From the IMG/VR virus record IMGVR_UViG_3300026176_000228, positions 32,001 to 96,000 of that record: 64,000 nt of DNA, one strand, 5' to 3'. The position numbers and the translations under genes are program-made. Below, one piece after another: positions 6,517-61,575 of this stretch (the stretch's first letter is position 1; each line of letters starts with the position of its first letter). Origin of the DNA: a virus (lineage: Duplodnaviria; Caudoviricetes). Under the pieces are notes generated by a model. The model ran no database searches, had not been told where the DNA came from, and was given only the letters and a program-made list of their open reading frames with translations.

Positions 6517-6709
6517 TGTCACTATGAGATTCCTGTTCCATGGTGGCCGCGAGCCAGCCATTATTGAGTACTTGAATCAGTTCATAGGTAAAGAGTCGGG
6601 GAATATTGACACCTGCAACTTCAAACGGTGGTACATCTAAGGACCAAGTTTCGAGAAAATGCAAGTGTTGTGCATTGACTTCTGCGGCGCGCGCGAGGGC
6701 ATCAGGCAT
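6491..6709 (-). CDS. Hypothetical protein
   Basis: Short ORF overlapping both neighbouring glycosyltransferase genes, suggesting translational coupling. Confidence 0.5.
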   Translation of the reverse strand: MPDALARAAEVNAQHLHFLETWSLDVPPFEVAGVNIPRLFTYELIQVLNNGWLAATMEQESHSDNATTEDSL

Positions 6710-8373
6710 TGGTAGGCTCCTTGGGCAACCAGTTGACGAAATGTAGCATAGGCAGTCTGCCGCGTTGAATCCGCACATCTTTGGCGATTTGCTGGTAAAC
6801 TTTTTCGTAAGCAGGCAATTGGTTGATTGCCAGTAGACTGCGATAGTAAGGCACGCGCGCGGTCGCGGTTTCTTGTTCCTGAATCAAATTACGGATCACT
6901 CGCGCCATGGTATCGTACCAGGCTTTGTTGTCATTGGGAATCGCGTAGCCTAGATGCTCTAAGTCGCGATAAGGTTCGCCCTGCGTGCCAATCCACGGTA
7001 CACCTGCCAAGCCGCATTCCAGAGCTTTAATCCAACTTCTGTGCTGGTCGTAGATACCGCAGAGAGGCGCGAGGCCAATATCAAAGGTCTTGACAACTGT
7101 CGGCCAAAGCGCAGGTTCTACACCAGGTTGGAGCAGTTTATTGTCGCGCGGCACCGGCAGCATGTCATAGATACGCGGGTCATTGCCGCAGAGCATAAAC
7201 ACAACCTGTGGAAACTTCTTCGCAATGTCATACGCGGCTTCACGAATTTCCGTACCCCACCAAGAGTCATAGTGCGAGACACTGCCACCCCAACCGATAA
7301 CTACGCGGTCAGTCAATTTGAGTTTAGCTTTTTGTTCCGCACGCGTAGGCATGACTTCCGGCCAGAAAGTATGGTCCGCGTAGTTAGGCAGGTAGTAACC
7401 TTGGACTGCGTAGCTCCAGTCTTGCAACAGCAGACGATTGGGCGCGGTCAAACCATCGCTCTTGCGCAGGCCGCGTTCGAGAATGTCTAAAGGTGCCGGA
7501 TCAAGGTCGTGCTTGTTCTCAATCCAGAACGCGTGCGCGGGATTACTCCAGGGTAAGATATGGTAGGCATCGTCTAAGTCAATCGAGACAGTCTTGCCTA
7601 GACCCTGGAAGTATTCAATCGCGTCAATGACTTTCTCGTTGATGACGTTACGCTGCACGCGTACGTGGTCCGCTTGCATGATCCAGTCTTGGATGACCGG
7701 ATTGATGTAATCCGTGAAACCAGAGACGTGGATTAATTTGGCAGACCAGTCTTTGAACGCGGGATCGTGTTCCGCGCGATAATTGATGGCATTCGCAGGC
7801 GTGAGATCACGCCACTGGCTCACATAATCTGGTCTTCCGACACAGTGTAGGACTATCTCATATTCCTGATAAATTCAGGAACCGGGGCGCTGATGAGGTC
7901 TTATTGTTGGGACTCAACCTCTAAGTCTCTGAACCTTCCGTGATACCTTAGCCCATCACGGCTTGGCTGCGGATTACCCGATAATGTTGCCAACATCTCT
8001 TGGGCTTCCCGATTAGATTGGCTACCCTGGCAATCTAACTTTCAATTCACCCCGTTTTTCAATGCTAGTTACCTAGCAAAGCTGCCACCCAGACAGTTCC
8101 ATTCAGTTTGGCTCGGAAATTAATTTTTGTTACATCTACCTAAGATAGATGGTCAAGTCATTTCTGCTTGACTCTGCATCTTTACTTATACATGCAGCCC
8201 GGACTTTGCCTTCATCCCGTAGGATGCGCCCCATCAAGTCTCTACACCTTCCATCTACTGATGGCTTGGCTCGACGTTGCCCACTCTTGGGGTGTTCATC
8301 GAATTTGAGGCGTTCACTGACTTAGTTACCTAAGTTTCGGACTAACATCCGCGTAGATAAAAACTATTTTCAA
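6702..8373 (-). CDS. Glycosyltransferase (GT4-like), spliced from exons 8347-8373, 8093-8113 and 6702-7820 (~388 aa)
   Basis: GAAAGGA RBS plus TTG start. The spliced N-terminus MKIVFIYAD|SQTEWNC|SQWRDLTP is in frame. IDLDDAY, IGWGGSVSH, FDIGLAPL and SWIKALE motifs are present. Confidence 0.85.
7821..8092 (-). ncRNA. Group I intron 2 of the glycosyltransferase (272 nt, no ORF)
   Basis: Exon ends in U with P1 CUGU/GCAG; AATCCGCAGCCAAG, TTCAGAGACT and GATAGTCC core elements; terminal G. Confidence 0.85.
8114..8346 (-). ncRNA. Group I intron 1 of the glycosyltransferase (233 nt, no ORF)
   Basis: P1 CGGAU/GUCCG with U.G at the splice site; GTCGAGCCAAG, GTGTAGAGACT and AAAGTCC core elements; terminal G. 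Confidence 0.85.
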
Positions 8374-8408
8374 CAGTGGTCCTTTCTCTTATCTAATATC
8401 TATAATCT

Positions 8409-8446
8409 ATTATATCAATTACGCGTTATTTTTGGCATATGCCAAA
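8409..8446 (-). promoter_or_regulatory. Extended -10 promoter (TGnTATAAT) whose -35 region overlaps a TTTGGCATATGCCAAA palindrome
   Basis: TATAAT at 8414-8409; perfect palindrome at 8431-8446. Confidence 0.6.
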
Positions 8447-8565
8447 TTCAACTGCCCAATCTAAAGACTAGCCACATGACTTCACATGCCGCGACCCAAA
8501 AGACATAGGCGCGGAAGCTGACCCACAACACATGCCATAGTGCGCCAATGGTAGACGCGTCCAAG

Positions 8566-9150
8566 CTAATCTGTTTCATTGCTGGTAGTATTGTTGCTAG
8601 TGGGTGTCAGTGCGCCAGAAGTCGCAAACATCCCGCGTGCAAAGCGTGGCGCAATACGGTCGCTATCGGTATCGTAGGTGTCTTTAGAAGCCTCTGAAAT
8701 ACCACCTACAAATAATGTACCGCGACTGGTGCTGCGCGTGACGCCCATCGTGGTTAGGTCTAATGCGGTAAATTGACCGAGTTGCTTCCAGAAGTAGTCT
8801 AGCAGCACTTGCCCGCGCGTGCGTTCACCAGGCGTCAGGGTGATGTTGATACGCGTGAGTTCACTCATGCCTGCCGCGTAAAGCATGTTGAGATTACGCA
8901 GCCAGTCACGCGCCGCGGTGCCTTCCGCGACCGGTACATCATAACCCTTACTGCTTAGAGTGCTTTCGATAATACCACAGCCTGAAGATAAATAGCTGTT
9001 GACATTAGCCAGGGTAGGCGAAGTGGATGTGCCGAAACCCGTCGCGGGGCCAAGTAAATTGCGGCACATCCCTGCGATATCGGAAGCCGCGGCGTAGGCT
9101 TCCCCAGGACTGACAAAGGCTGAACCAGTGGTTGAAAAGGTATTAGTCAT
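8566..9150 (-). CDS. Head-tail adaptor/connector-like protein
   Basis: AYAAASDI...IIESTLSSKGYDVPV...LRNLN pattern and PRFARGMF C-terminus resemble gp6/gp15-type adaptors. Confidence 0.6.
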   Translation of the reverse strand: MTNTFSTTGSAFVSPGEAYAAASDIAGMCRNLLGPATGFGTSTSPTLANVNSYLSSGCGIIESTLSSKGYDVPVAEGTAARDWLRNLNMLYAAGMSELTRINITLTPGERTRGQVLLDYFWKQLGQFTALDLTTMGVTRSTSRGTLFVGGISEASKDTYDTDSDRIAPRFARGMFATSGALTPTSNNTTSNETD

Positions 9151-17339: not shown

Positions 17340-19156
17340 TTAAACTGCCGAGAAGATCACACTTCCCGCGTCGCTGGCTGTGATTTTTTCCACCACTGAA
17401 TGACTGGCCTCAATCTTGTCCGTGTATTCCTCTTCCCTGCGGAAGCGGCGCACCTGACGACCATTCCATTCGAGCAGGTAGCCTGCCGCGGGCGTCAGCA
17501 GCGCGGGCGCGGATGGGACATAGCCCAGCCACATACCGTCACCCCAGATATACTGCGGGCTACCGGTTTGGCCTTCCAGCGCCGGGTCAAACAGCGACAT
17601 GCCGATCAGAAACTTCTCGAAGCCGAACCACTCGCCAAAGTCACTGGTCATGACGCGCGCGTTCGGGCGAGTGTATTTTACGCGGTCCAGCAGATCGGGA
17701 TGCTGGCGCAGATGCCGCCACACGTCCCAACTAATGACCGCCACATTGGGCATGCGCCCGATAGTCGAGACGACGCCGTTGATCGCATCTTCGATGTCAC
17801 CGTAGGGGTCAGATGTGTCGCTGGACCACTGGGTCGTGGGTGAAGCCGCGTAAGCCCACAGCGCAGAGCCACCCGTGGTTAGGTCAGCAATCCGTTTTTC
17901 CTGTGCGCGCAGGAGTTGGTCCATGACGAATTCAACGGCTTCCGCGTCAGGTCGCAGCGGACTGTCTGCGTTTTGTCGAACTTCCACTTTTGTTACTACT
18001 TACTTGCGTAAGCGGGTAGATCATTTCTGTCTACCTCTACGGGTTCACTTCCCCGTAGGTCGGAGCACATCATCATCCCAGTAGGATGTTGGCTCTATGC
18101 TCTCTACACATTTCAATTCGCATTTGTACTTTGCTAATGCGTATGATATAATGGCATTAGAAAGGTGGTTTTATGGATTCTAATACATACAAGAAACTTT
18201 GGAAGGCTAAGCGCATCGCTGAAGGTCTATGTTATCGCTGCGGTAAACCTCGCACTGACGACCGTAAAATTTGCGCTGCTTGTAACAAGAAGTCTAACCG
18301 CAGGGCTGCTGCTTGGCGAGAACGGGTTTTGATTGAACGTCGCTGTACTAGTTGTGGTGAACCATTAGCAGAGAATGAAACTCGACTCACTTGTTCGACC
18401 TGTGCCGCTAAAAACTCTAAGGCTACCCGTGAAAAGCAGAAACAAGCAATCGCTAATGGCCTGTGTGAAGCATGTCAGAAAAACCCTATTGGCTCTCGCT
18501 CTTCTGTTTGTTGTGATGCGTGTTATGAAAAACGCTTGGTATCACATCGTAAGATTCATAGTAGAATCAACTTTGGCGGTTTACGTGAAGCCGCCCTAGA
18601 GCGAGATAACCATGTCTGCCGCGCTTGTGGGTCAAGCACTAAACTTGAAGTTCATCACCTAGATGGCAATCGTCAGCATAACGAGTTATCTAATTTCATA
18701 ACCCTTTGTCATAATTGCCATGTGCTTTTGACCCGTATGATCGAAGCGCCTAATCTTCCGTTTCTGTATGAACTTGTAAAGGTGCAAATGCGAATTGTTT
18801 AGCTCGGTATTGGCATCTCAGCTTCCACCGAATTAGGCCAATTTTCACCGTCACATTGCTATGGCGGGGGACAAAAGTTTATCCGGAACTAATTTTGAGA
18901 TTGCCCACGTTGGGGTGTAGTAACTGGCTGTCGTTAGATCGTAATCTGCCTCAGCCGACCGCGCACCCGGTGCCCGCTTTTGCACGTCAATGCGTTGCCA
19001 AGCCTGCCGGGGAAATTCCCAGATGTAGTCCGTCTGCTTCTGGACTGGCACGCGCGGAAAGATTTGATCGCCAATGTAAAGTTGATTCTTGTACGCCAGG
19101 CTGAGCGAGGTCAGCGCGGCGTCAAGATGGACATCTCGCACAGAGGGTAGAGCCAT
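17340..19156 (-). CDS. Major capsid protein, spliced from exons 18881-19156 and 17340-17984 (~306 aa)
   Basis: VHLDAALTSLSLAYKN...IFPRVPVQKQ N-terminus; the join KLVPD|EVRQNADSPL is in frame; QWSSDTSDPYGDI and IGRMPN motifs of gpE-like capsids. Confidence 0.9.
18124..18152 (+). promoter_or_regulatory. Promoter of the intron-encoded HNH gene
   Basis: TTGTAC-17-TATAAT with TGn extension; AGAAAGG RBS at 18159-18165. Confidence 0.7.
18173..18802 (+). CDS. HNH homing endonuclease with tandem CxxC zinc repeats (intron-encoded, antisense)
   Basis: ALERDNHVCRACG...LEVHHLDGNRQHNELSNFITLCHNCH; several N-terminal CxxC pairs. Confidence 0.9.
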   Translation: MDSNTYKKLWKAKRIAEGLCYRCGKPRTDDRKICAACNKKSNRRAAAWRERVLIERRCTSCGEPLAENETRLTCSTCAAKNSKATREKQKQAIANGLCEACQKNPIGSRSSVCCDACYEKRLVSHRKIHSRINFGGLREAALERDNHVCRACGSSTKLEVHHLDGNRQHNELSNFITLCHNCHVLLTRMIEAPNLPFLYELVKVQMRIV

Positions 19157-21080: not shown

Positions 21081-22223
21081 CTAAAGCCCAACGGCTTCTT
21101 GGGGCACGCACGCCGCAACCGGCCACGTTACGCCCCAGGCTCGCTGTCCGCGGGCCAGCAGATTACGTGCAGCGTTCTCATCTCGATCCATAGATAAGCC
21201 ACACGCGCACCGCACCCAGCGATCTGCTAACGTTAGGTGCTCAAATATAGAACCGCATTGTGAGCAGGTTTTAGATGAATAAGCGGGATTGACTGCCACA
21301 ATTAACTTCCCGGCCCATGCTGCCTTGAAAACTAATTGACTACGGAAGTAACCCCACGAAGCATCTAGAATGCTCTTTGATAAATGATGGTTCTTTACCA
21401 TATTGGTGATTTGTAAATCTTCAATCGCAATACGGTCATAATGTGATACTAAATTATGGACTGTTTTTTTGATGAAATCAGTACGTCGATTAGCGATACG
21501 CCGATGGTGTAACTGCACCGCGCGCTTGGCCCTACCCCGACCTCGACTACCATTCTTGCGACGCGACATACGCCGCTGTAAGACGCGAAATTTAGCTTGC
21601 TCAGTACGATACCATTTCGGGTTTTCGATATGTTCACCGTTTGATATGGTGAGTAATGAGCTAATACCCACATCAATTCCAGCTTCTTGACCAGTTAGCC
21701 CAAGTGGTTGTGGGTCTATCTCACAAGCAAAGCAAACATACCATTTATTCGCTTGTCTACGGATGCGTATGGTTTTGATTCTACCCTCTATGGGACGATG
21801 CCAGCGAACCGCGACGCGTCCAATACCCGATAGTTTCAAACGCCGACCGTCAATCTTGAAACCGTTGTTTAGTTCTTTAAAACCAAAAGAATCATAACGG
21901 CCACGTTCACGAAAGCGTGGATAACCCGGTGTCTCGCCTGCCTTAACCCGGCGAAAAAACGCCTGAAACGCTTTATCCAAATCAGTCGTGACGACTTGCA
22001 AGACATGACTGTGAATCTGTCCAGCGAAGGAGTTTGCCCTGCGGTAGTTCTTAACGTTTGCTAATTGCTCAAACTTGCCAACACTGCGTTTTTCTCCTTC
22101 CCACGCATCTCTGCGTTCCGCAAGACAAGTATTGTACCAGTGACGACAAGTTTCAAGCGTTTGATTTAGTAGACGCGCTTGATTCTTGCTTGGATACAAA
22201 CGGTATTTGTAGGTAATCAGCAT
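21081..22223 (-). CDS. tnpB: RNA-guided endonuclease TnpB
   Basis: TYKYRLYP HTH, GIDVGI (RuvC-I), IAIEDL (RuvC-II), CSQCG zinc ribbon, DRDENAARN (RuvC-III). Confidence 0.95.
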   Translation of the reverse strand: MLITYKYRLYPSKNQARLLNQTLETCRHWYNTCLAERRDAWEGEKRSVGKFEQLANVKNYRRANSFAGQIHSHVLQVVTTDLDKAFQAFFRRVKAGETPGYPRFRERGRYDSFGFKELNNGFKIDGRRLKLSGIGRVAVRWHRPIEGRIKTIRIRRQANKWYVCFACEIDPQPLGLTGQEAGIDVGISSLLTISNGEHIENPKWYRTEQAKFRVLQRRMSRRKNGSRGRGRAKRAVQLHHRRIANRRTDFIKKTVHNLVSHYDRIAIEDLQITNMVKNHHLSKSILDASWGYFRSQLVFKAAWAGKLIVAVNPAYSSKTCSQCGSIFEHLTLADRWVRCACGLSMDRDENAARNLLARGQRAWGVTWPVAACVPQEAVGL

Positions 22224-45221: not shown

Positions 45222-46220
45222 ATGAGTCAACACAGTGTCAATGTTGTACGTTTGGGTAATATTGCACCACATCCCAATGCTGATACTCTGGACACAACCA
45301 CGGTCAATGGTTTCACCTGCGTGATTCGGCGCGGTGATTTTCAACCAGGCGACCTTGCACTTTACATCGAACCGGATTACGTTGTACCGCTGGATAATCC
45401 ACTGTTTACCTTCCTACGACCTGAAAATCATCCTGAACGCATCGTGCAACGCATTGGTGTCAAGCGTCTGCGCGGTATCTATTCCATGGGCCTGCTGCTA
45501 CCTGCACCCGCGGGCGCGCAAGAGGGTGATGATTTGATGGAAGCTCTGGGTATCACGCGCTATGAGCCACCTGAACAAACTGATGCCAACACTGGCGGGG
45601 CAACCGAAGCCCCGCCTTATCGTCAGGTGATTCCAACTTATGACTTGGAAAACTTGCGCAAATGGCAGGCTAAAGTTGAAGGCCATCAAGTTATTATCAC
45701 CGAAAAAGTCCACGGCACAAACGCCCGCTATGTCTGGTCAAGCGCATATGAGCGCATGTTCTGTGGCTCACGGCGTGAATGGAAGAAGGAAGACGCGACT
45801 AATCTATGGTGGCGCGCGCTGGCGCAGAATCCGTGGATCGCAGAATGGTGCCAAAAGCATCCTGATGTAATTCTGTGGGGTGAAGTTTATGGTTGGGTAC
45901 AAGATTTGCGTTATGGGGCCAAGCCGGGTGAATTTTTCTTCCGCGTGTTTGATATCTATACCGTAGATAGTGCGACTTTCTGGTTGCCCGGCATGGCGCA
46001 GAGTATCTTTGGCGCACGCGCCATGCCAATTGTGTATCAGGGTATCTACCCTGGTTTCGCGGCAGTTGAACAAATGGCGGATGCTGATAGCGCATTGGCA
46101 AAGCATATCCGCGAAGGCGTAGTTATCGAAGTAACTGATATGCCAAATGAATGGGATACTGATTTGCAAGCTTGGCGCATTAAGTTGAAGTTGCCCGGTA
46201 ATAAATATCTCAGTCGTTGA
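45222..46220 (+). CDS. RNA ligase (Rnl2/DRB0094-like) with N-terminal OB fold
   Basis: PHPNADTL, LRGIYSMGLL, motif I TEKVHGTN, GEVYG, FRVFDI and REGVVI. Confidence 0.9.
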   Translation: MSQHSVNVVRLGNIAPHPNADTLDTTTVNGFTCVIRRGDFQPGDLALYIEPDYVVPLDNPLFTFLRPENHPERIVQRIGVKRLRGIYSMGLLLPAPAGAQEGDDLMEALGITRYEPPEQTDANTGGATEAPPYRQVIPTYDLENLRKWQAKVEGHQVIITEKVHGTNARYVWSSAYERMFCGSRREWKKEDATNLWWRALAQNPWIAEWCQKHPDVILWGEVYGWVQDLRYGAKPGEFFFRVFDIYTVDSATFWLPGMAQSIFGARAMPIVYQGIYPGFAAVEQMADADSALAKHIREGVVIEVTDMPNEWDTDLQAWRIKLKLPGNKYLSR

Positions 46221-55095: not shown

Positions 55096-57927
55096 TTACT
55101 GTTTCCAGCGTGAAGTTCTAGGTGGCCTGCTAACTGTCCAGCGTGACTTAGCCAGGCCACCTTCCGCTTCTGTCTGCCCCAAGCGTTTGAGTTCATACAT
55201 AGACTCATCTTCTAGCGCGCCAGTGGGCAGAGCAAAGGTCATCGCGAGACTATCCGCGGTATCTGGTGAACGCCCTAAACGCGCGCGAATATCATCCTTA
55301 CTCTCTAGCAGAATCCGGCCATACATATCTGGCGCAAACTTGGGCATAATCAAATCAGCTTGTAGACGCGGGTCATTCGGGATGGCAAGCTTGCCTTCGC
55401 GCAGTAGTTCACGTACTTTCCACCAACACTCCGCGCGCAGATTGGCAAAACGCTTCTTCTGTACGGCTGAGCGCGCGAAGTTGACCGCCACAACTGGTAA
55501 ACCCATGACTCTGGCTCTGTCGGTTGCTCCCGCGCCTGATCCCACGTCATCAATATAGACTTTACTGGCATGAAACTCACGCGTCTGCAACGCTAACCAC
55601 TCAGTAATCTGCTGCGTATCCTGGCCGCGTAGCCGCGTGAGATGCGTCACCTGCATACCCTGACGCACACATAATGAGTTATCATCGCCGTTGCGTGGCG
55701 CAGGGTCCAGGCCAATGACGACTTCACTGCCGCGTTCGTTTAGCACGCGTTCCTGTGCGGCAAGCACCCAACTGAGTTTGATAAGCTGGTCCTCAGCCTG
55801 CTCAGGTGGGATACCCAAAACCTTAGCCTGGAAGATGGGCATCGGTTCGTAATATTTATCAATCCAGGGCAGATGCACCGCGTTGGGTGTACCCGGCGCA
55901 ACTTCAGTCGCCCATTCCTTAGCGCGTTCTTCCACCCAAGAGCGCGTGACCGCACCAGGAATAACCTCGTGCCCCTCTTTGACATTGGGATGGTCAAAAG
56001 CGGAGATACGAATATGGTGCCAGGATGGATTCAGGGTCGCGTCATAAAATGGCCCCGCTTGTTCAACGGGGTTGCCAATCGCGAGGATGCGGCACTGGTC
56101 GCCTACTGCGAGGCCATTGACGCTATCCCAAATGGCTTTTGGTAAACCCGCAGCTTCATCCATAATGACCAGCATACGCGGGCCGTGGAAGCCTTGTAGA
56201 GTTGAGATAGTATCGCCATCGCGTCCGGTGTCTTTTTTAGGTGAAAGACCAATGGCATAATGGTCGGAAGCGATTTCCCAACGGGGTGTCTCAAAGACTT
56301 GACCGGGTAAGTTAGCCTTACGCGCCGCGGTACGCATATACCGCCAGATGATGTTGGCAACCTGATTGAAGGTATTGCCACTCCAGATGTATTTGCCATT
56401 ACGCCTGACTAACACGATACCAGATGGCACTGAAACACAGTATACGTAACCGGAATATGGTTGCTTGTACCAACCAGGACATAAATTAGTTCTATTTTGA
56501 TGCTTTATCCGATTTATGGCAACTGGAAATTCACCACGTTTTTTCCAGAAACCAACTTGGTACATGTCTTGATTTTTATAGACATGCCCATTGACTGCTG
56601 TATCAAGTACAGTATGATTCACATTGGCTATGATGCCACATTTCAAAGCCAATACCTGTAAATCACCAGCTAATTCACGGTTGCAGGAATAGAGACGCGT
56701 GCTGCCATTCTTATCCGTACCACCATCGCCCATTTCAAAACCGCGCAAGAACGCTTTGATAATAGGCGTTTCAGCATTACTAATAATATCTGGCACGCGC
56801 TTGGTATGAGAGTTACCGTACACCACGAATTCGGTTGCCATTTCCAGGCTATTGATAGTATAGTCATAGCAACCAGGATTTTGATGTTTTTCTTGCTTTT
56901 TAGCTCTTTTCTCCAATCCAACTCTCTCTAGTAAATCTTCGATGTATTGGGTATTTCTACCTGTTACCGTAACGCGATAATGCCTTCTAACTGGTTCTAC
57001 CTGAGCATAACCTTCGGCAAACCAGAAACCTAAGAACTCAGCCCAATTTTCATCAATACCAGTATCTTCACCTTGCCAACCAGCTATTTTTCTAAATCTA
57101 CCGTTTTTGCCATAAATTTCACTGGCAGCATAAACATCATTTCTGAATTCTTTGCGCCAGATAGTTCTATCAAAGAGACAGCGATGGTTAGGCGTAACCA
57201 GGAAATCAACTAGCTGACTCTTGAATCCAATCATTTCTCCTTCATATGGAAATTCCACTATGCCAGTGGGCTGTACGTACTCTAGATTGTCATTATTTAG
57301 TTGCGCTACCTTATCAGTTATAGATAAATCTTTGAATAATTTCCAACCTGAATCGGTTAGAATTTCAGTTTGATCATCATAGCAAGGAGCAACCGTAATA
57401 ACGATAGATGGACTATGAACCGTGAGAAACCAGCACGCGAGCGCACTAGCTGACACGCTTTTACCCGTTCCGAAGGAACTCTCTACCACGGTGTTGTGGT
57501 TCTTCTCAACTGAGTGACAAATCTCAGCCAGTTTATCCCACATCGCATACCCCAGGGTATCGCGCATGAACTCAACCGGGTCAGTGGGAAAACCCTTACT
57601 TTCAGTCTGCTCTTGATAACCCGCGATACCCTGCTGCCAATCGGGAGTAGACTGTAATAGTTGCGCAATCGTCTCCGCGGGCAGAAAAGGCATGAGTTTG
57701 AGTAAATCTTCCTGCGAGGCATTTTTCTTCTTGTTACGACCCGCGTTAGTCGCGACCTTCTCCGTCACCGGCGCAGCCACATGCGCAGATACTTTCTGCG
57801 CTTCAGCGACTTGTGCCGCTTTAGCCGCGCGGACTTGATCGCGCGCGAGAGCTTTCTTTTCTAGCAGCGTAGGTAACGGGGTGCCATCCTCTGCTACAGT
57901 CTTACGGGGTGGACTAGCGCGTTTCAT
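55096..57927 (-). CDS. terL: Terminase large subunit containing an intein
   Basis: Walker A SSFGTGKS, Walker B IMDEAAG, IGNP, nuclease IGLDPA and SPDTADSL; likely start MKRASPP. Confidence 0.92.
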   Translation of the reverse strand: MKRASPPRKTVAEDGTPLPTLLEKKALARDQVRAAKAAQVAEAQKVSAHVAAPVTEKVATNAGRNKKKNASQEDLLKLMPFLPAETIAQLLQSTPDWQQGIAGYQEQTESKGFPTDPVEFMRDTLGYAMWDKLAEICHSVEKNHNTVVESSFGTGKSVSASALACWFLTVHSPSIVITVAPCYDDQTEILTDSGWKLFKDLSITDKVAQLNNDNLEYVQPTGIVEFPYEGEMIGFKSQLVDFLVTPNHRCLFDRTIWRKEFRNDVYAASEIYGKNGRFRKIAGWQGEDTGIDENWAEFLGFWFAEGYAQVEPVRRHYRVTVTGRNTQYIEDLLERVGLEKRAKKQEKHQNPGCYDYTINSLEMATEFVVYGNSHTKRVPDIISNAETPIIKAFLRGFEMGDGGTDKNGSTRLYSCNRELAGDLQVLALKCGIIANVNHTVLDTAVNGHVYKNQDMYQVGFWKKRGEFPVAINRIKHQNRTNLCPGWYKQPYSGYVYCVSVPSGIVLVRRNGKYIWSGNTFNQVANIIWRYMRTAARKANLPGQVFETPRWEIASDHYAIGLSPKKDTGRDGDTISTLQGFHGPRMLVIMDEAAGLPKAIWDSVNGLAVGDQCRILAIGNPVEQAGPFYDATLNPSWHHIRISAFDHPNVKEGHEVIPGAVTRSWVEERAKEWATEVAPGTPNAVHLPWIDKYYEPMPIFQAKVLGIPPEQAEDQLIKLSWVLAAQERVLNERGSEVVIGLDPAPRNGDDNSLCVRQGMQVTHLTRLRGQDTQQITEWLALQTREFHASKVYIDDVGSGAGATDRARVMGLPVVAVNFARSAVQKKRFANLRAECWWKVRELLREGKLAIPNDPRLQADLIMPKFAPDMYGRILLESKDDIRARLGRSPDTADSLAMTFALPTGALEDESMYELKRLGQTEAEGGLAKSRWTVSRPPRTSRWKQ
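56374..57384 (-). mobile_element. Intein with LAGLIDADG endonuclease (337 aa) in TerL
   Basis: VAP|CYDDQTEILT...VTPNH...FLGFWFAEG...FLRGFEMGDG...VYCVSV...WSGN|T. Confidence 0.92.
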
Positions 57928-58522
57928 TAACCACCGTGTACTCACCCTCAATCGTCTCACTGTTTTGTAACAGACGTTTTTGGGTCATCAATTCAATGAC
58001 TTGCAGGCGTTTGGCTTCCGGTAACGCAGCCAAGGCTTCTTGCACCTGCATCGCGGAGAGGTTGAAAATCTGTGGAATAGACTTAGCTTGCAGTTCTGAC
58101 GCGATGCGCGCGAGGTTTGCAGCTTCGCCAGGTGAAAGTTCTAGGGCTTCATCATCAATGTTGTCCAGGGCGCGGTTAGCCTTCTTACGTAACCGTGCAC
58201 CGATTTCGTAATCCTGCTCACGCCATTCCCAATCACGCTCAGCCCAATTAACATAGCGACTTTTTAGTTCCGCAATATCTCTGGCTGCGGCGCGTTCAGC
58301 CCAGCGGTATTCATCGGCAGTGCGCGAGAAACTGGATGATACCTGCCCACCTTCACGCGCGGTACCTTTAGTCCACTCACGCCAGGCTTTTCTGTAGGTG
58401 CGGTCGATGGGGCGTAAATTGGCATATACCAAAAACGCGGCATAGTCGCCCGCAGGTTCGCCTGCGGCCTCTTGCCATTCCCAAATCGGGTCGGTAAATT
58501 CAAGTTCTTCTCGTTGCGTCAT
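57914..58522 (-). CDS. Terminase small subunit (putative)
   Basis: WE...GE...YAAFLVY...YRWAERAAARD pattern; immediately upstream of terL. Confidence 0.7.
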   Translation of the reverse strand: MTQREELEFTDPIWEWQEAAGEPAGDYAAFLVYANLRPIDRTYRKAWREWTKGTAREGGQVSSSFSRTADEYRWAERAAARDIAELKSRYVNWAERDWEWREQDYEIGARLRKKANRALDNIDDEALELSPGEAANLARIASELQAKSIPQIFNLSAMQVQEALAALPEAKRLQVIELMTQKRLLQNSETIEGEYTVVNETR

Positions 58523-58786: not shown

Positions 58787-59843
58787 GTCGTTCCATCACT
58801 TTCGCGGCCATCTCTAAATTATCGAAACCGGTCATGCTGTTTGTTTCAGCGTCGAAGATAATCGCAATCGCGGTACTGGTATTCGGTTTGGGATAACCGT
58901 TCTGGCGCGCATAACTGTCTACGCGCTTATAGGAACCACACAGACCCGCAATACCATTACAGCCTGCCACGTTGAAGGTTCTGACGACGCCGCTGCGATG
59001 GGTATGCGCGCCCACACCCCACACAAAGTCCTGGTCAAAGCGCGCAGCCTTCTCAATGCCATGGGTGTCATTGATTTCCGACCGCCCGCGCCAATTATGC
59101 CGCAAACGGCCTGCAAAATCAACCCCCTTGACGCGTAAGGTTACGCGACAGTCATACGCGTCATGCAGGATGGTCGGTGTAATGTCCTTGATGAGTTCGC
59201 GCTGCCAATTCATGCCCGTCATCAACATCGTCCAGAGGTCATGATTGCCATCCACGGCTAACCGCCACTTAGGAGCCAATCTCTGCATGTACTGTTTGCC
59301 GAGAATGATTTCTTCTTGAATTGACATGGGGGTGTCAAAGCGAATGGCGCGCATCTTCTCCAGAATGAAATTGTCAAACATATCACCTACGGTCGCGACG
59401 ATGGTCTGCGGCATCTCTGCGATAATATCCGCTTCCGTAAACGCGCGGGCTACATCGGTGCCTGCGTTGCCAAAATGTTGGTCTGCAACATACACCACAC
59501 AGGCGGGTGAAAAATCCAGAGTTACAATCTGGTCATGCCTGCGCGCGTCTAACTGATTACTATACCGATACGCGCTGAGAGCCTTATCTAAAATAGCCTG
59601 TTCGTCCAAGGGTTCGTTGAGTGTCACCCCCTGGATACTAATATCTGGCGCAACCTCTTGAGTGACCTGTTGTGCCAGATAGGTATCGCGCGCCTGTTGC
59701 GCTTCCTCTAAGGTTTTATAAGTACCAAGATGGCGTCTATTGATGCGCAGACGATAATTACCACTATCACGTCGTTCGATATGCCTAAGCGGTGCGTCCT
59801 GTAGGCCGCTGGCCGGTGCCATTGGTTGGGCTGGACTGGACAT
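58773..59843 (-). CDS. Calcineurin-like metallophosphoesterase with N-terminal AP2-like domain
   Basis: DQHFG, GDMFDN, GNHD and GAHTH; HLGTYKTLEEAQQAR. Confidence 0.8.
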   Translation of the reverse strand: MSSPAQPMAPASGLQDAPLRHIERRDSGNYRLRINRRHLGTYKTLEEAQQARDTYLAQQVTQEVAPDISIQGVTLNEPLDEQAILDKALSAYRYSNQLDARRHDQIVTLDFSPACVVYVADQHFGNAGTDVARAFTEADIIAEMPQTIVATVGDMFDNFILEKMRAIRFDTPMSIQEEIILGKQYMQRLAPKWRLAVDGNHDLWTMLMTGMNWQRELIKDITPTILHDAYDCRVTLRVKGVDFAGRLRHNWRGRSEINDTHGIEKAARFDQDFVWGVGAHTHRSGVVRTFNVAGCNGIAGLCGSYKRVDSYARQNGYPKPNTSTAIAIIFDAETNSMTGFDNLEMAAKVMERLTQK

Positions 59844-61575
59844 TAGAATTAGACCTCGATGCAGCCGCGGTGCTCTGCGGGTTGATGGGTTGGTCAATAA
59901 TAGTTTGGGCAGTCGGAAGATTAATTTCCGTGCCGGTTTCAGCCTCAATCGCGAGTTCCAATTGTTCAATTAGGGGGCCAAGGAATGCGACGAGTTGTTC
60001 ATCAGTCATGGTTTCGTAGGTAGGCAATTCTTTAATCGCGAGCAGGACACGGCGCAGGACTAAGGCTGTGTCCATCGCGCTACGTACCGGGGCTTTGACT
60101 TTCTCGCCTTCTGGTTCTTTGTGTTCTGGTAGACGCGCCATTTGGCGCAGGTGGCGTTCCAGTTCAGGATCAGGGCTGATGACTTCGCGGCCCACCAACT
60201 GATTGACGAAGGTTGCGATAGTCGCGAGGTCAGGAATCCCTACTTCGGAGGGCTGGACTTTGGGCAGACCTGTGATATCAGGAAAAACGTTGTAGCGTAA
60301 GAGGCGTGGAATCGCGATGCGATTGATGACATCCGCGATCTTCTGGAGCCACGCGATAATCGCGAGGACAAATAAATCATTTTGACTTCTGGCTAACGCA
60401 TAACTACCAATGCGATCCATGCCGAGCATGATGAATTGCGCGAGCACTGAAAGAGCTTTACGTCGATCCAGACGTTCGATAATCGCACCGACATCATGCG
60501 CGCGAGCGCCCCCTGCGGAAAGGAGTTCAATGAGCATACCTTGACCTTCCGCGGCATGGCCCATCTTAGGATGTGGCACGACGATCCCGGCCTGTTCATC
60601 GTTGCGCAGGTTGACAACTAAATCCTTAGCCAGTTCAAAGTCGGAGTTAGGGCCGGATGTGGTGCAGTCGTTACCGAGATAAACGACAGGGATACCCGCG
60701 AGGTCGCGTTCAACGCCAATACCTTCGATTTCCTGAAAATTCTTAGTAAAATAATATGCGGTGTACATGGCCCGATGGACTGGACGACCCCACGGCGTTC
60801 CAGCGGGAACGACTGTAGTACGAAAGATGAGTAAGCGTTCAATGGGAATAAATTGGGGACCATCGTCGGTCCATTGATTGATACCTTCAATGCCGCCTTG
60901 TTTATCGAGTACAAATTCATCACCGGAGACTAAGGTTTCCACGGGCCGCGGTGCCCACTTACGCCAACCAATGCGTCCGTCACTGTAATCTGAAGGACTG
61001 GCCCCTGGTACATCGGGTGGCTTGGGGCCAAGGCGTCGTTTGTAGACAATTTCCAGGGCCGTGACGCCTTGTTCCAGCATCAGTAGAATGTGGTCAAGCA
61101 CATCGACCCACGGGCTGGACATATCAAAGAGTGCTTCCTGGACGAATTTGGCACATGCCAAATCTGCTTCACTTTCGCTGACAGGCGCGACCCGCCAAGT
61201 AGCCTGCTTCAAAGAGTTCTCAATAGCAAAGAAGGTCGCGGCAATCACCGGATCATTCAGGCGCATCTCGCGCAAGATTTTCCAACGTGAGCTAGAACCA
61301 ATCGCGAGTTCGCGCAACGGTTCTTCATCATCTTGCAGCCAACGCGAATAACCGCTTTGACCTAACTCATTGAAATGCGGACGCTCGACCGGCGCAGTCG
61401 CGGCAGGCTGTGTTAGCATAGACTCAATGGCTTTGCGATCATAGCGGCGTTGATTGCCAGGGGTGCGCGCGGGCTTGAGTTTGCCATCGTTTTCCCAGCG
61501 CAAGAGACTACCGCGCGAGAAACCATAGAGTTGTTCGACTTGCGAGGCGGTGAGTAATTGTTCGGGTACAGGCAT
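59785..61575 (-). CDS. Portal protein (DUF935/Mu gp29-like) with N-terminal MerR-type HTH
   Basis: EMRLNDPVI, GVTALEIVY, EGIGVERDLAGIP, GSYALA and IPRLLRYN; LLRWENDGKLKPARTPGNQRRY HTH. Confidence 0.88.
   Translation of the reverse strand: MPVPEQLLTASQVEQLYGFSRGSLLRWENDGKLKPARTPGNQRRYDRKAIESMLTQPAATAPVERPHFNELGQSGYSRWLQDDEEPLRELAIGSSSRWKILREMRLNDPVIAATFFAIENSLKQATWRVAPVSESEADLACAKFVQEALFDMSSPWVDVLDHILLMLEQGVTALEIVYKRRLGPKPPDVPGASPSDYSDGRIGWRKWAPRPVETLVSGDEFVLDKQGGIEGINQWTDDGPQFIPIERLLIFRTTVVPAGTPWGRPVHRAMYTAYYFTKNFQEIEGIGVERDLAGIPVVYLGNDCTTSGPNSDFELAKDLVVNLRNDEQAGIVVPHPKMGHAAEGQGMLIELLSAGGARAHDVGAIIERLDRRKALSVLAQFIMLGMDRIGSYALARSQNDLFVLAIIAWLQKIADVINRIAIPRLLRYNVFPDITGLPKVQPSEVGIPDLATIATFVNQLVGREVISPDPELERHLRQMARLPEHKEPEGEKVKAPVRSAMDTALVLRRVLLAIKELPTYETMTDEQLVAFLGPLIEQLELAIEAETGTEINLPTAQTIIDQPINPQSTAAASRSNSNVQSSPTNGTGQRPTGRTA

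What the first reader, a model, noticed from the sequence alone, without database searches (positions are those of the whole stretch)
7821..8373. Two tandem group I introns flanking a 21-nt micro-exon in a phage glycosyltransferase
The apparent intergenic gap holds a 27-nt exon (8373-8347), a 233-nt intron, a 21-nt exon (8113-8093) and a 272-nt intron. Each intron has a P1 U.G pair, core elements and a terminal G. Splicing yields MKIVFIYAD-SQTEWNC-SQWRDLTP in frame. Known phage group I introns mostly sit in DNA-metabolism genes, so ORF-less twin introns in the first 16 codons of a glycosyltransferase are unusual. Skipping the micro-exon would preserve the frame, so alternative splicing is possible.
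Basis: partly seen in the sequence, partly recalled or inferred. Interest (0 to 1): 0.8.

Follow-up and report, generated by a model that had tools for sequence, protein, structure and literature searches.

The report
Two introns splitting a phage glycosyltransferase
The start of a phage sugar-transferase gene is interrupted by two unrelated self-splicing (group I) introns only 21 bases apart; removing them restores exactly the protein start seen in uninterrupted relatives, a neat but not unprecedented arrangement for phages.

Summary
Both introns match Rfam RF00028 over the full model (E 1e-9 and 5e-8) but score below the gathering score. Both have a U.G pair at the 5' splice site and a terminal G. 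The spliced product MKIVFIYAD|SQTEWNC|SQWRDLTP is collinear, without gaps, with intron-less homologs such as MKIVFVYADSPSEWNCSQWRSLTP. Relatives carry each intron singly at the same junctions, scoring 56 and 72 bits. Intron 1 is homologous to the RT-PCR-verified BAKA tail-gene intron. Intron 2 belongs to a widespread IA-type phage lineage but has a unique 31-nt hairpin inside P4, so its activity is less certain. The introns are unrelated to each other and about 83% identical to their same-site homologs, while the host genes are about 55% identical. That implies horizontal spread. Multi-intron phage genes, small internal exons and exon skipping are already documented, so this is a new member of a known kind. 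Side finding: 27 of 72 phage-clade relatives carry 4-21-nt inserts, several with stop codons, in the same motif. None of about 34 cellular copies do. This scan has noted such candidate ribosome-hop inserts before on other DNA.

The parts
8409..8438 (-). Promoter-like site with an extended -10 (TG-TATAAT) upstream of the gene
   Evidence: 10 of 12 matches, TG before the -10. This is a consensus match only; the count does not exceed shuffles.
8380..8386 (-). Ribosome-binding site GAAAGGA, 6 nt before the TTG start
   Evidence: L060 has the equivalent GAAAGGAAG before its ATG.
8347..8373 (-). Exon 1, 27 nt, encoding MKIVFIYAD (beta-strand 1 plus invariant D9)
   Evidence: Collinear with homolog N-termini. 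Against L060 exon 1 there are 3 synonymous and 1 conservative change in 8 codons.
8114..8346 (-). Intron 1, 233 nt, ORF-less group I intron. Elements: P1 3' strand 8342-8338, P2 8334-8321, P3 8312-8307/8232-8227, P4 8302-8297/8276-8271, P5 8291-8280, P6 8265-8251, P7 8240-8236/8206-8202, P8 8226-8213 (UACG loop), P9 8197-8174, P9.1 8172-8152, P9.2 8151-8133, omega-G 8114
   Evidence: 43.7 bits, E 9.7e-10. (56 pairs, 17 compensatory, with L060/L063/BAKA). (the MFE fold recovers the helices). (coordinates).
8093..8113 (-). Micro-exon, 21 nt, encoding SQTEWNC (the beta1-alpha1 loop; E, W and N invariant)
   Evidence: Its first 3 nt form P10 of intron 1 and its last 4 nt form P1 of intron 2.
7821..8092 (-). 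Intron 2, 272 nt, ORF-less IA-type group I intron. Elements: P1 3' strand 8085-8082, P10 strand 8092-8087, P2 8077-8064, P3 8054-8048/7889-7883, P4 8044-8043 plus 8011-8008 / 7973-7968, P5 8005-7976, P6 7961-7938, P7 7927-7923/7855-7851, P7.1/7.2 7921-7895, P8 7881-7863, P9 7845-7829 (GGAA loop), omega-G 7821
   Evidence: 38 bits, E 5.1e-8. (37 pairs, 17 compensatory, across 10 family members)..
8012..8042 (-). 31-nt hairpin insertion, unique to this copy, splitting the 5' strand of P4 (UG^CGGG) of intron 2
   Evidence: columns 73-102 are occupied only by the window sequence; it folds as an independent 8-9-bp hairpin.
6702..7820 (-). Exon 3, the rest of the GT-B (GT4-like) glycosyltransferase, starting SQWRDLTP
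   Evidence: ORF; phrog_7162 glycosyltransferase, E 2.6e-8; 217 homologs; fold of a 58%-identical homolog: PimA/MshA/BshA-like.

Best explanation
Two unrelated, ORF-less group I introns have each inserted into the DNA that encodes the most conserved N-terminal motif of a phage GT4-like glycosyltransferase. That motif is beta-strand 1, the ADSxxEWNC loop and the start of helix 1. The insertion sites are 21 nt apart: after codon 9 (D|S) and after codon 16 (C|S). The gene sits in the tail/virion module and is transcribed as one precursor. Each ribozyme folds on its own. Its internal guide pairs with the upstream exon (P1, with U.G at the splice site). Guanosine attacks the 5' splice site, and the freed exon then attacks after the terminal G. 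Ligation yields MKIVFIYAD-SQTEWNC-SQWRDLTP... and a full-length enzyme of 388 residues. Shown here: the anatomy, the significance of the ribozyme matches, family covariation, same-site homologs, and exact collinearity with intron-less alleles. Inferred: that both introns actually splice in vivo, and that they arrived by homing. Intron 1 is very likely active. Intron 2 is probably active, but its P4 insertion leaves a real doubt.
For: Two full-length RF00028 matches at E 9.7e-10 and 5.1e-8. They are the only ones in the genome. P1 U.G, omega-G and P10 can be read directly from the sequence. The spliced N-terminus matches intron-less homologs residue for residue in spacing and keeps every invariant position: D9, E13, W14, N15, S17, R20. 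L060/L063 carry an intron-1 homolog at the identical YAD| junction, above Rfam's gathering score (56 bits), and have no intron 2. L008 carries an intron-2 homolog (72 bits) at the identical C|S junction. Intron 1 aligns with the BAKA gp34 intron, whose splicing was shown by RT-PCR (PMC3706429), with 17 of 56 pairs showing compensatory changes. The intron 2 family has 17 of 37 pairs compensatory. The introns are about 83% identical to their same-site homologs, while the host genes are 55-56% identical with third positions at 33-36%. Exon 1 differs from L060 mainly by synonymous changes. The two introns share no extended similarity, so they are not a duplication.
Against: Both window copies score below Rfam's gathering score of 50. 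Intron 2 has only a 4-bp P1. It also carries a unique 31-nt hairpin in the P4 5' strand, next to J3/4, which could impair folding. There is no RNA evidence from this phage. A GTG at 7823 lets gene callers predict a 373-aa product without any splicing.
Confidence: 0.82

Rival explanations
1. One or both introns are dead. Intron 2 is the likelier candidate because of its P4 insertion. The gene would then be a recent pseudogene, or be expressed only as the 373-aa product from GTG 7823 that lacks beta-strand 1 and the conserved loop.
For: Sub-threshold Rfam scores. The unique 31-nt insert in P4. A GTG-initiated ORF is what gene callers report for this protein and its 99% and 75% relatives.
Against: Exons 1 and 2 keep a start codon, an RBS and every invariant residue. 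The truncated protein would lack the core strand and the invariant D, E, W and N. The 31-nt insert folds as a self-contained hairpin that leaves the UG/CGGG-UCCGCA pairing of P4 intact. No convincing SD sequence precedes GTG 7823.
Confidence: 0.13
2. Regulated alternative splicing: the 5' splice site of intron 1 is joined to the 3' splice site of intron 2, skipping the micro-exon and producing a second protein isoform with a function of its own.
For: 21 nt keeps the frame. Exons 2 and 3 both begin AGCCA, so intron 1's short P10 could form with either. Exon skipping by tandem phage group I introns is documented in Twort orf142 and SIOphi (PMC11878797).
Against: The skipped product loses E13, W14, N15 and C16, the invariant beta1-alpha1 loop. 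No homolog lacks these residues.
Confidence: 0.04
3. The arrangement arose by tandem duplication of one intron together with flanking exon sequence, not by two independent insertions.
For: Exons 2 and 3 both start AGCCA(A/G). L145 shows that near-identical tandem introns do occur in phages.
Against: The two introns share only generic core strings (best 17 nt). They differ in architecture: P7.1/7.2 occurs only in intron 2, and P9.1/9.2 only in intron 1. Each occurs alone in other phages.
Confidence: 0.01

Closest known systems
Group I intron in the minor tail protein gene of cluster J mycobacteriophages BAKA/Optimus, and the related LittleE capsid intron (Pope et al. 2013, PMC3706429)
   Same: Homologous to intron 1: about 82% identity over the P8-P9.1 region, alignable throughout with compensatory changes. 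Also ORF-less, about 265 nt, in a virion-module gene, with U at the exon end and G at the intron end. Splicing was verified by RT-PCR.
   Different: A single intron per gene, in a different host gene (tail or capsid protein, not a glycosyltransferase), with a longer P1/P2 and P8. The host phage is a mycobacteriophage, whereas the host of the present phage is unknown.
Multi-intron phage genes: Twort orf142 (three group I introns, exon skipping; Landthaler & Shub 1999), phiNIT1 rNDPL (small exon between two introns) and the SIOphi terminase/polymerase exon skip (PMC11878797)
   Same: Several self-splicing group I introns close together in one phage gene, short internal exons, and frame-preserving exon skipping as a possible outcome.
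   Different: Those genes encode tail tube, ribonucleotide reductase, polymerase or terminase proteins. Here the host is a glycosyltransferase, both introns lie within the first 16 codons, and the internal exon is only 21 nt. Exon sizes in the published cases could not be retrieved here.
T4-type IA2 introns (td, nrdB, nrdD) and the wider IA phage intron lineage
   Same: Intron 2 has the P7.1/7.2 extension and the conserved J3/4-P4-P6-P7 core. Forty-three IMG/VR contigs share its 16-nt P3/J3/4 string.
   Different: No homing-endonuclease ORF. A unique 31-nt hairpin inside P4. A very short 3' tail after P9. Subgroup assignment was not formally tested.
Programmed translational bypassing: T4 gene 60 (50-nt gap) and the 10-nt inserts of Streptomyces phage phiHau3 terminase (PMC10732093). 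Relevant only to the relatives' short inserts.
   Same: In relatives of this GT there are short untranslatable inserts. They often start with a stop or a rare codon and are often flanked by the same or a near-cognate codon. They come with extra local RNA structure, and the downstream ORF is intact.
   Different: Not present in the window itself. Gaps are 4-21 nt and lie at codon 8-19, so hardly any nascent peptide exists. Matched take-off and landing codons are absent at the W|N site. There is no product evidence.

Membership tests
Group I catalytic intron (Rfam RF00028) | Significant match of sequence plus secondary structure to the family covariance model | tested here: inconclusive
   Full-length matches at E 9.7e-10 and 5.1e-8, but 43.7 and 38 bits against a gathering score of 50. 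Same-site homologs pass at 56.3/56.4 bits (L060/L063) and 72 bits (L008).
Group I catalytic intron (Rfam RF00028) | P1 helix between the 5' exon and the internal guide, with a U.G wobble at the 5' splice site | tested here: met
   Intron 1: CGGAU/GUCCG, 5 bp, U8347.G8342, also recovered by RNAalifold. Intron 2: CUGU/GCAG, 4 bp, U8093.G8085.
Group I catalytic intron (Rfam RF00028) | Terminal guanosine (omega-G) at the 3' splice site, with P10 to the 3' exon | tested here: met
   G8114 and G7821. These are the only G positions that give the conserved reading frame. P10 has 3 bp (intron 1) and 5 of 6 bp (intron 2).
Group I catalytic intron (Rfam RF00028) | Conserved core P3-P8 including P7, supported by covariation | tested here: met
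   Intron 1 family: 17 of 56 pairs compensatory. Intron 2 family: 17 of 37. P7 (GACU/AGUC) was read by eye, because it is a pseudoknot partner that the folding tools do not draw.
Group I catalytic intron (Rfam RF00028) | Excision restores an uninterrupted, conserved coding sequence | tested here: met
   The spliced N-terminus is collinear with 45 contiguous phage-clade alleles and about 34 cellular alleles.
Group I catalytic intron (Rfam RF00028) | Guanosine-dependent self-splicing activity | not testable with these tools
   Needs in-vitro transcription and splicing, or RT-PCR.
Twintron (intron nested within an intron) | One intron lies inside the other and must be removed first | tested here: not met
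   The two ribozymes are separate and are divided by a 21-nt exon that encodes invariant residues. The arrangement is tandem, not nested.
GT-B fold, GT4-like retaining glycosyltransferases | Two Rossmann-like domains, with closest structural neighbours in GT4 | tested here: met
   AF2 model of the 58%-identical homolog P0008 has pLDDT 91.3. Foldseek top hits are PimA, MshA, BshA, TreT and glycogen synthase, E 1e-13 to 1e-10. This was tested on a homolog, not on the window protein.
GT-B fold, GT4-like retaining glycosyltransferases | Match to a curated glycosyltransferase sequence family | tested here: inconclusive
   No Pfam hit at E<=0.1 for the 373-aa ORF. phrog_7162 'glycosyltransferase' at E 2.6e-8. 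PF13692 is recorded for several homologs. No PDB sequence match.
Programmed translational bypass (applies to relatives' short inserts only) | Stop or slow codon after take-off, matching landing codon, stimulatory RNA structure, single full-length product | tested here: inconclusive
   At the unambiguous W|N site, 5 of 8 inserts start TGA. Matched Ser/Thr codons occur in L019, L025, L012, L067, L090, L091 and L093, but not at W|N. There is extra RNA structure: z -2.1 versus -0.2, p 2e-4. The protein product is not testable here.

The most novel reading that the evidence does not exclude
The first ~20 codons of this phage glycosyltransferase family are a battleground for selfish elements. The window's two introns are one outcome. 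In about a third of phage-clade relatives the same motif instead carries 4-21-nt untranslatable inserts, held in dedicated RNA hairpins, that ribosomes must hop over. Cellular copies are never interrupted. If so, group I introns and miniature programmed bypass elements would be alternative solutions at one homing hot spot, and short-range bypassing would be common in phages rather than a T4 curiosity. This scan has already proposed the same insert class in other phage genes, so the class itself is not new to the scan.
Probability: 0.3. Interest if true: 0.8.

Novelty: new member of a known kind. Interest (0 to 1): 0.5.

Why it matters
The finding adds a glycosyltransferase of the virion/tail module to the genes known to host phage group I introns. 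It also gives a compact natural test case. Two different ribozymes must fold and act within about 530 nt, around an exon so short (21 nt) that it supplies P10 to one intron and P1 to the other. That arrangement is useful for studying splicing order, interference and exon skipping. In practice, gene callers systematically truncate this protein family (373 aa instead of 388 aa, with many odd N-termini in the databases) because of these interruptions. The comparative picture marks the YADSxxEWNCSxWR coding stretch as a hot spot for mobile insertions in phages but not in cells.

Tried and rejected
- The default Rfam search at gathering score over the whole window found nothing. The E-value mode was needed.
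- tblastn of the GT against 50,697 phage records gave no match.
- blastn against phages matched only about 67 nt of intron 1 in cluster J phages.
- A 23-nt exact string from intron 1 found nothing in IMG/VR.
- A PDB sequence search with the family profile gave no meaningful hit.
- Twort paper PMC22036 is not held, so its exon sizes are not quoted.
A weak HNH/zinc-ribbon ORF lies antisense there.
- Tandem-duplication origin was rejected, and the twintron reading was rejected.
- Reading the relatives' short inserts as scars of group I intron loss was rejected. Most follow G or C rather than U, and none resembles the intron ends.
- Frameshifting as a general fix for the short inserts was rejected, because all three length classes modulo 3 occur.

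Full report
**What is there.**
On the minus strand, a TTG at 8373 lies behind a GAAAGGA ribosome-binding site and an extended -10 promoter-like site. It opens a 27-nt exon encoding MKIVFIYAD. There follow 233 nt (8346-8114), a 21-nt stretch encoding SQTEWNC (8113-8093), and 272 nt (8092-7821). The long ORF then begins with SQWRDLTP (6702-7820).

**Are the two gaps group I introns?**
- The default Rfam search found nothing.
- In E-value mode, both gaps match RF00028 over the whole model on the correct strand: 43.7 bits (E 9.7e-10) and 38 bits (E 5.1e-8). The gathering score is 50.
- They are the only two matches in the 104.7-kb viral record.
- Read directly, intron 1 has a 5-bp P1 (CGGAU/GUCCG) with U8347.G8342, a GUUA loop whose GUU can pair with the AGC of exon 2 (P10), and a terminal G8114.
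- Intron 2 has a 4-bp P1 (CUGU/GCAG) with U8093.G8085, a P10 with 5 of 6 pairs to AGCCAG of exon 3, and a terminal G7821.
- Plain MFE folding recovers P2-P9 in both.
- No ORF of any size lies inside either intron.

**The decisive test: intron-less homologs.**
- A search with the 373-aa ORF found 217 relatives.
- Full-length intron-less relatives begin, for example, MKIVFVYADSPSEWNCSQWRSLTP or MKVVKIFADSEIEWNCSQWRDLTP. The predicted spliced product is collinear with them, with no gap.
- In 34 full-length homologs, D9, E13, W14, N15, S17 and R20 are invariant, and A8, C16 and W19 are conserved in at least 90%. The window's three exons supply all of these residues.

**Same-site homologs of each intron.**
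- *Intron 1:* Metagenomic loci L060/L063 have ATG AAG ATA GCT TTT ATT TAT GCG GAT followed by GTTAGTCCGG... This 209-nt intron scores 56 bits, above Rfam's cut-off, and ends ...AACAATG before ACA CCG ATG GAA TGG AAC. The junction is YAD|TPMEWNC, the same as intron 1. These loci have no intron 2.
- *Intron 2:* Viral contig L008 (the same contig as L074 and L150) has a 72-bit intron, cut by the contig end, that stops just before AGC GAA TGG CGG. That is the junction of intron 2.
- The two introns therefore occur independently. The window phage has both.

**Lineages and covariation.**
- Intron 1 aligns along its length with the BAKA gp34 tail-gene intron. Pope et al. showed by RT-PCR that the BAKA intron splices (PMC3706429). 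Across only three distinct sequences, 17 of 56 predicted pairs show double compensatory changes.
- Intron 2 belongs to a widespread phage lineage with a P7.1/7.2 extension. Its 16-nt P3/J3/4 string occurs in 43 IMG/VR contigs. In a 10-member alignment, 17 of 37 pairs are compensatory.
- The two introns share only generic core strings. Tandem duplication is excluded.

**A caveat on intron 2.**
The family alignment shows that the window copy alone has 31 extra nucleotides (8042-8012). They sit exactly between the UG and CGGG halves of the P4 5' strand, next to J3/4. They form a self-contained hairpin, so P4 can still close around a three-way junction. The effect on catalysis cannot be judged by computation. 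This insertion, together with the short P1, is why I put intron 2's activity below intron 1's.

**Mobility.**
- Intron 1 is 83% identical to the L060 intron (172 of 206 aligned positions). Intron 2 is 83% identical to the L008 intron (156 of 189).
- The host genes are only 55-56% identical at nucleotide level, with third codon positions at 33-36%.
- The introns are therefore much younger than the divergence of their hosts. Each must have spread horizontally into the same conserved target.
- Neither intron carries an endonuclease, and none lies beside the gene. Mobility would need a trans-acting enzyme or reverse splicing. This is inference.

**The host gene.**
- The 373-aa ORF has no Pfam hit but matches a PHROG glycosyltransferase family.
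- An AlphaFold model of the 58%-identical intron-less homolog P0008 is confident (pLDDT 91.3). Strand 1 is residues 2-7, a loop is residues 8-15, and helix 1 starts at residue 16.
- Foldseek places the model among GT4 enzymes such as PimA, MshA and BshA.
- The micro-exon therefore encodes essentially the whole beta1-alpha1 loop.
- The gene lies beside a second GT4-like gene. Nearby are tail and carbohydrate-active proteins and a tape-measure gene. This fits a role in virion or host-surface glycosylation, which remains inference.
- Cellular homologs (32-41% identity) are concentrated in Anaerolineae. That is a possible clue to the host.

**Exon skipping.**
- Skipping would preserve the frame, and exons 2 and 3 both begin AGCCA. 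Published phage cases show that tandem group I ribozymes can skip an exon (PMC11878797).
- Here, however, skipping would remove three invariant residues and the loop they form.
- I rate a functional alternative isoform as unlikely.

**Comparison with what is known.**
Group I introns are published in phage structural, lysis and terminase genes. So are several introns in one gene, a small exon between two introns, and exon skipping. A four-term full-text search found no report of a group I intron in a phage glycosyltransferase. This is a new member of a known kind. Its notable features are the 21-nt exon shared between two unrelated ribozymes and the position within the first 16 codons.

**Seen in relatives, not in the window.**
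- Of 72 distinct phage-clade loci with N-terminal coverage, 45 have the motif contiguous. The other 27 carry inserts of 4-21 nt inside codons 8-19. All three length classes modulo 3 occur.
- At the one site where the cut is unambiguous (between W and N), 5 of 8 inserts begin TGA directly after TGG. In the variable positions the cut is ambiguous over about 10 nt.
- The downstream ORF is intact in 24 of 25 resolved cases.
- The same 11-nt insert occurs in L064 and L066, with four synonymous codon differences just upstream.
- None of about 34 cellular copies is interrupted.
- The 96 nt around the motif fold far more stably in insert-bearing alleles than in contiguous ones: mean z -2.1 versus -0.2, p 2e-4. 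Usually a long 5' hairpin ends just before the insert.
- This fits programmed short-range bypassing, as proposed for the 10-nt inserts of phiHau3 terminase (PMC10732093), better than it fits decay. Landing codons do not match at the W|N site, and there is no product evidence.
- Earlier notes of this scan describe the same class in other phage genes. They are unverified AI notes, and I used them as leads only.

**Limits.**
Subgroup assignment was not formally tested. The fold was predicted for a homolog, because joined exons could not be submitted.

Noticed in passing
Relatives L007, L009/L010, L012, L013, L018/L019, L021, L025, L064-L067, L071, L073, L075, L078-L080, L090, L091, L093-L095, L100, L102, L105, L106, L109, L116 (about 10-60 nt upstream of the tblastn match start in each): Inserts of 4-21 nt break the frame or contain stop codons, inside the YADSxxEWNCSxWR coding stretch of otherwise intact GT genes. 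They occur in 27 of 72 phage-clade loci and in none of about 34 cellular copies. They are associated with significantly stronger local RNA hairpins. They are candidates for short translational bypass elements; the same class has been noted by this scan in other phage genes.
   Followed up: partly
L145:9050-9620: Two near-identical intron-2-type group I introns, each inserted after GGATCTT and separated by a ~135-nt exon, in another viral contig. This is a second natural example of tandem introns, here by duplication or double homing of one element.
   Followed up: partly
window 17340-18880: A capsid-like ORF fragment (weak Phage_cap_E match) lies next to an antisense 209-aa ORF with double zinc ribbon and weak HNH matches. 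No RF00028 match was found at E<=10. The layout recalls the LittleE capsid intron, which has an antisense endonuclease gene.
   Followed up: partly
window 55096-57960 (-): A 954-aa protein with an internal LAGLIDADG_3 domain (residues 401-450). It is probably an intein-bearing large protein next to the Mu-like portal gene (59785-61575).
   Followed up: no
window 21081-22223 (-): A full-length TnpB / IS605 OrfB gene (OrfB_IS605 plus Cas12f1-like TNB plus HTH domains) inside the phage genome.
   Followed up: no
window 45222-46220 (+): A phage-encoded RNA ligase (RNA_ligase plus PHA02142 OB-fold domains).
   Followed up: no
window 8448-8579 (-): A 43-aa hydrophobic ORF overlaps the stop codon of the upstream gene (ATGA) and lies directly upstream of the GT promoter region. 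It may be a small membrane protein.
   Followed up: no
Protein database entries P0001, P0002, P0007, P0014, P0022, P0023, P0035, P0039 and others: Many database members of this GT family have artificial N-termini, starting at SQWR, at an internal Met, or in a foreign frame. Gene callers stop at the introns or short inserts, so the family is systematically mis-annotated.
   Followed up: partly
L187, L188, L190-L193, L195, L200, L208, L211, L214, L217 and L115, L121, L126: In several Anaerolineae genomes the tblastn match spans about 1500-1650 nt and starts inside a different N-terminal sequence (...LNLGWVGTPG...). This suggests a fused or tandem paralogous GT arrangement rather than an intron.
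   Followed up: no
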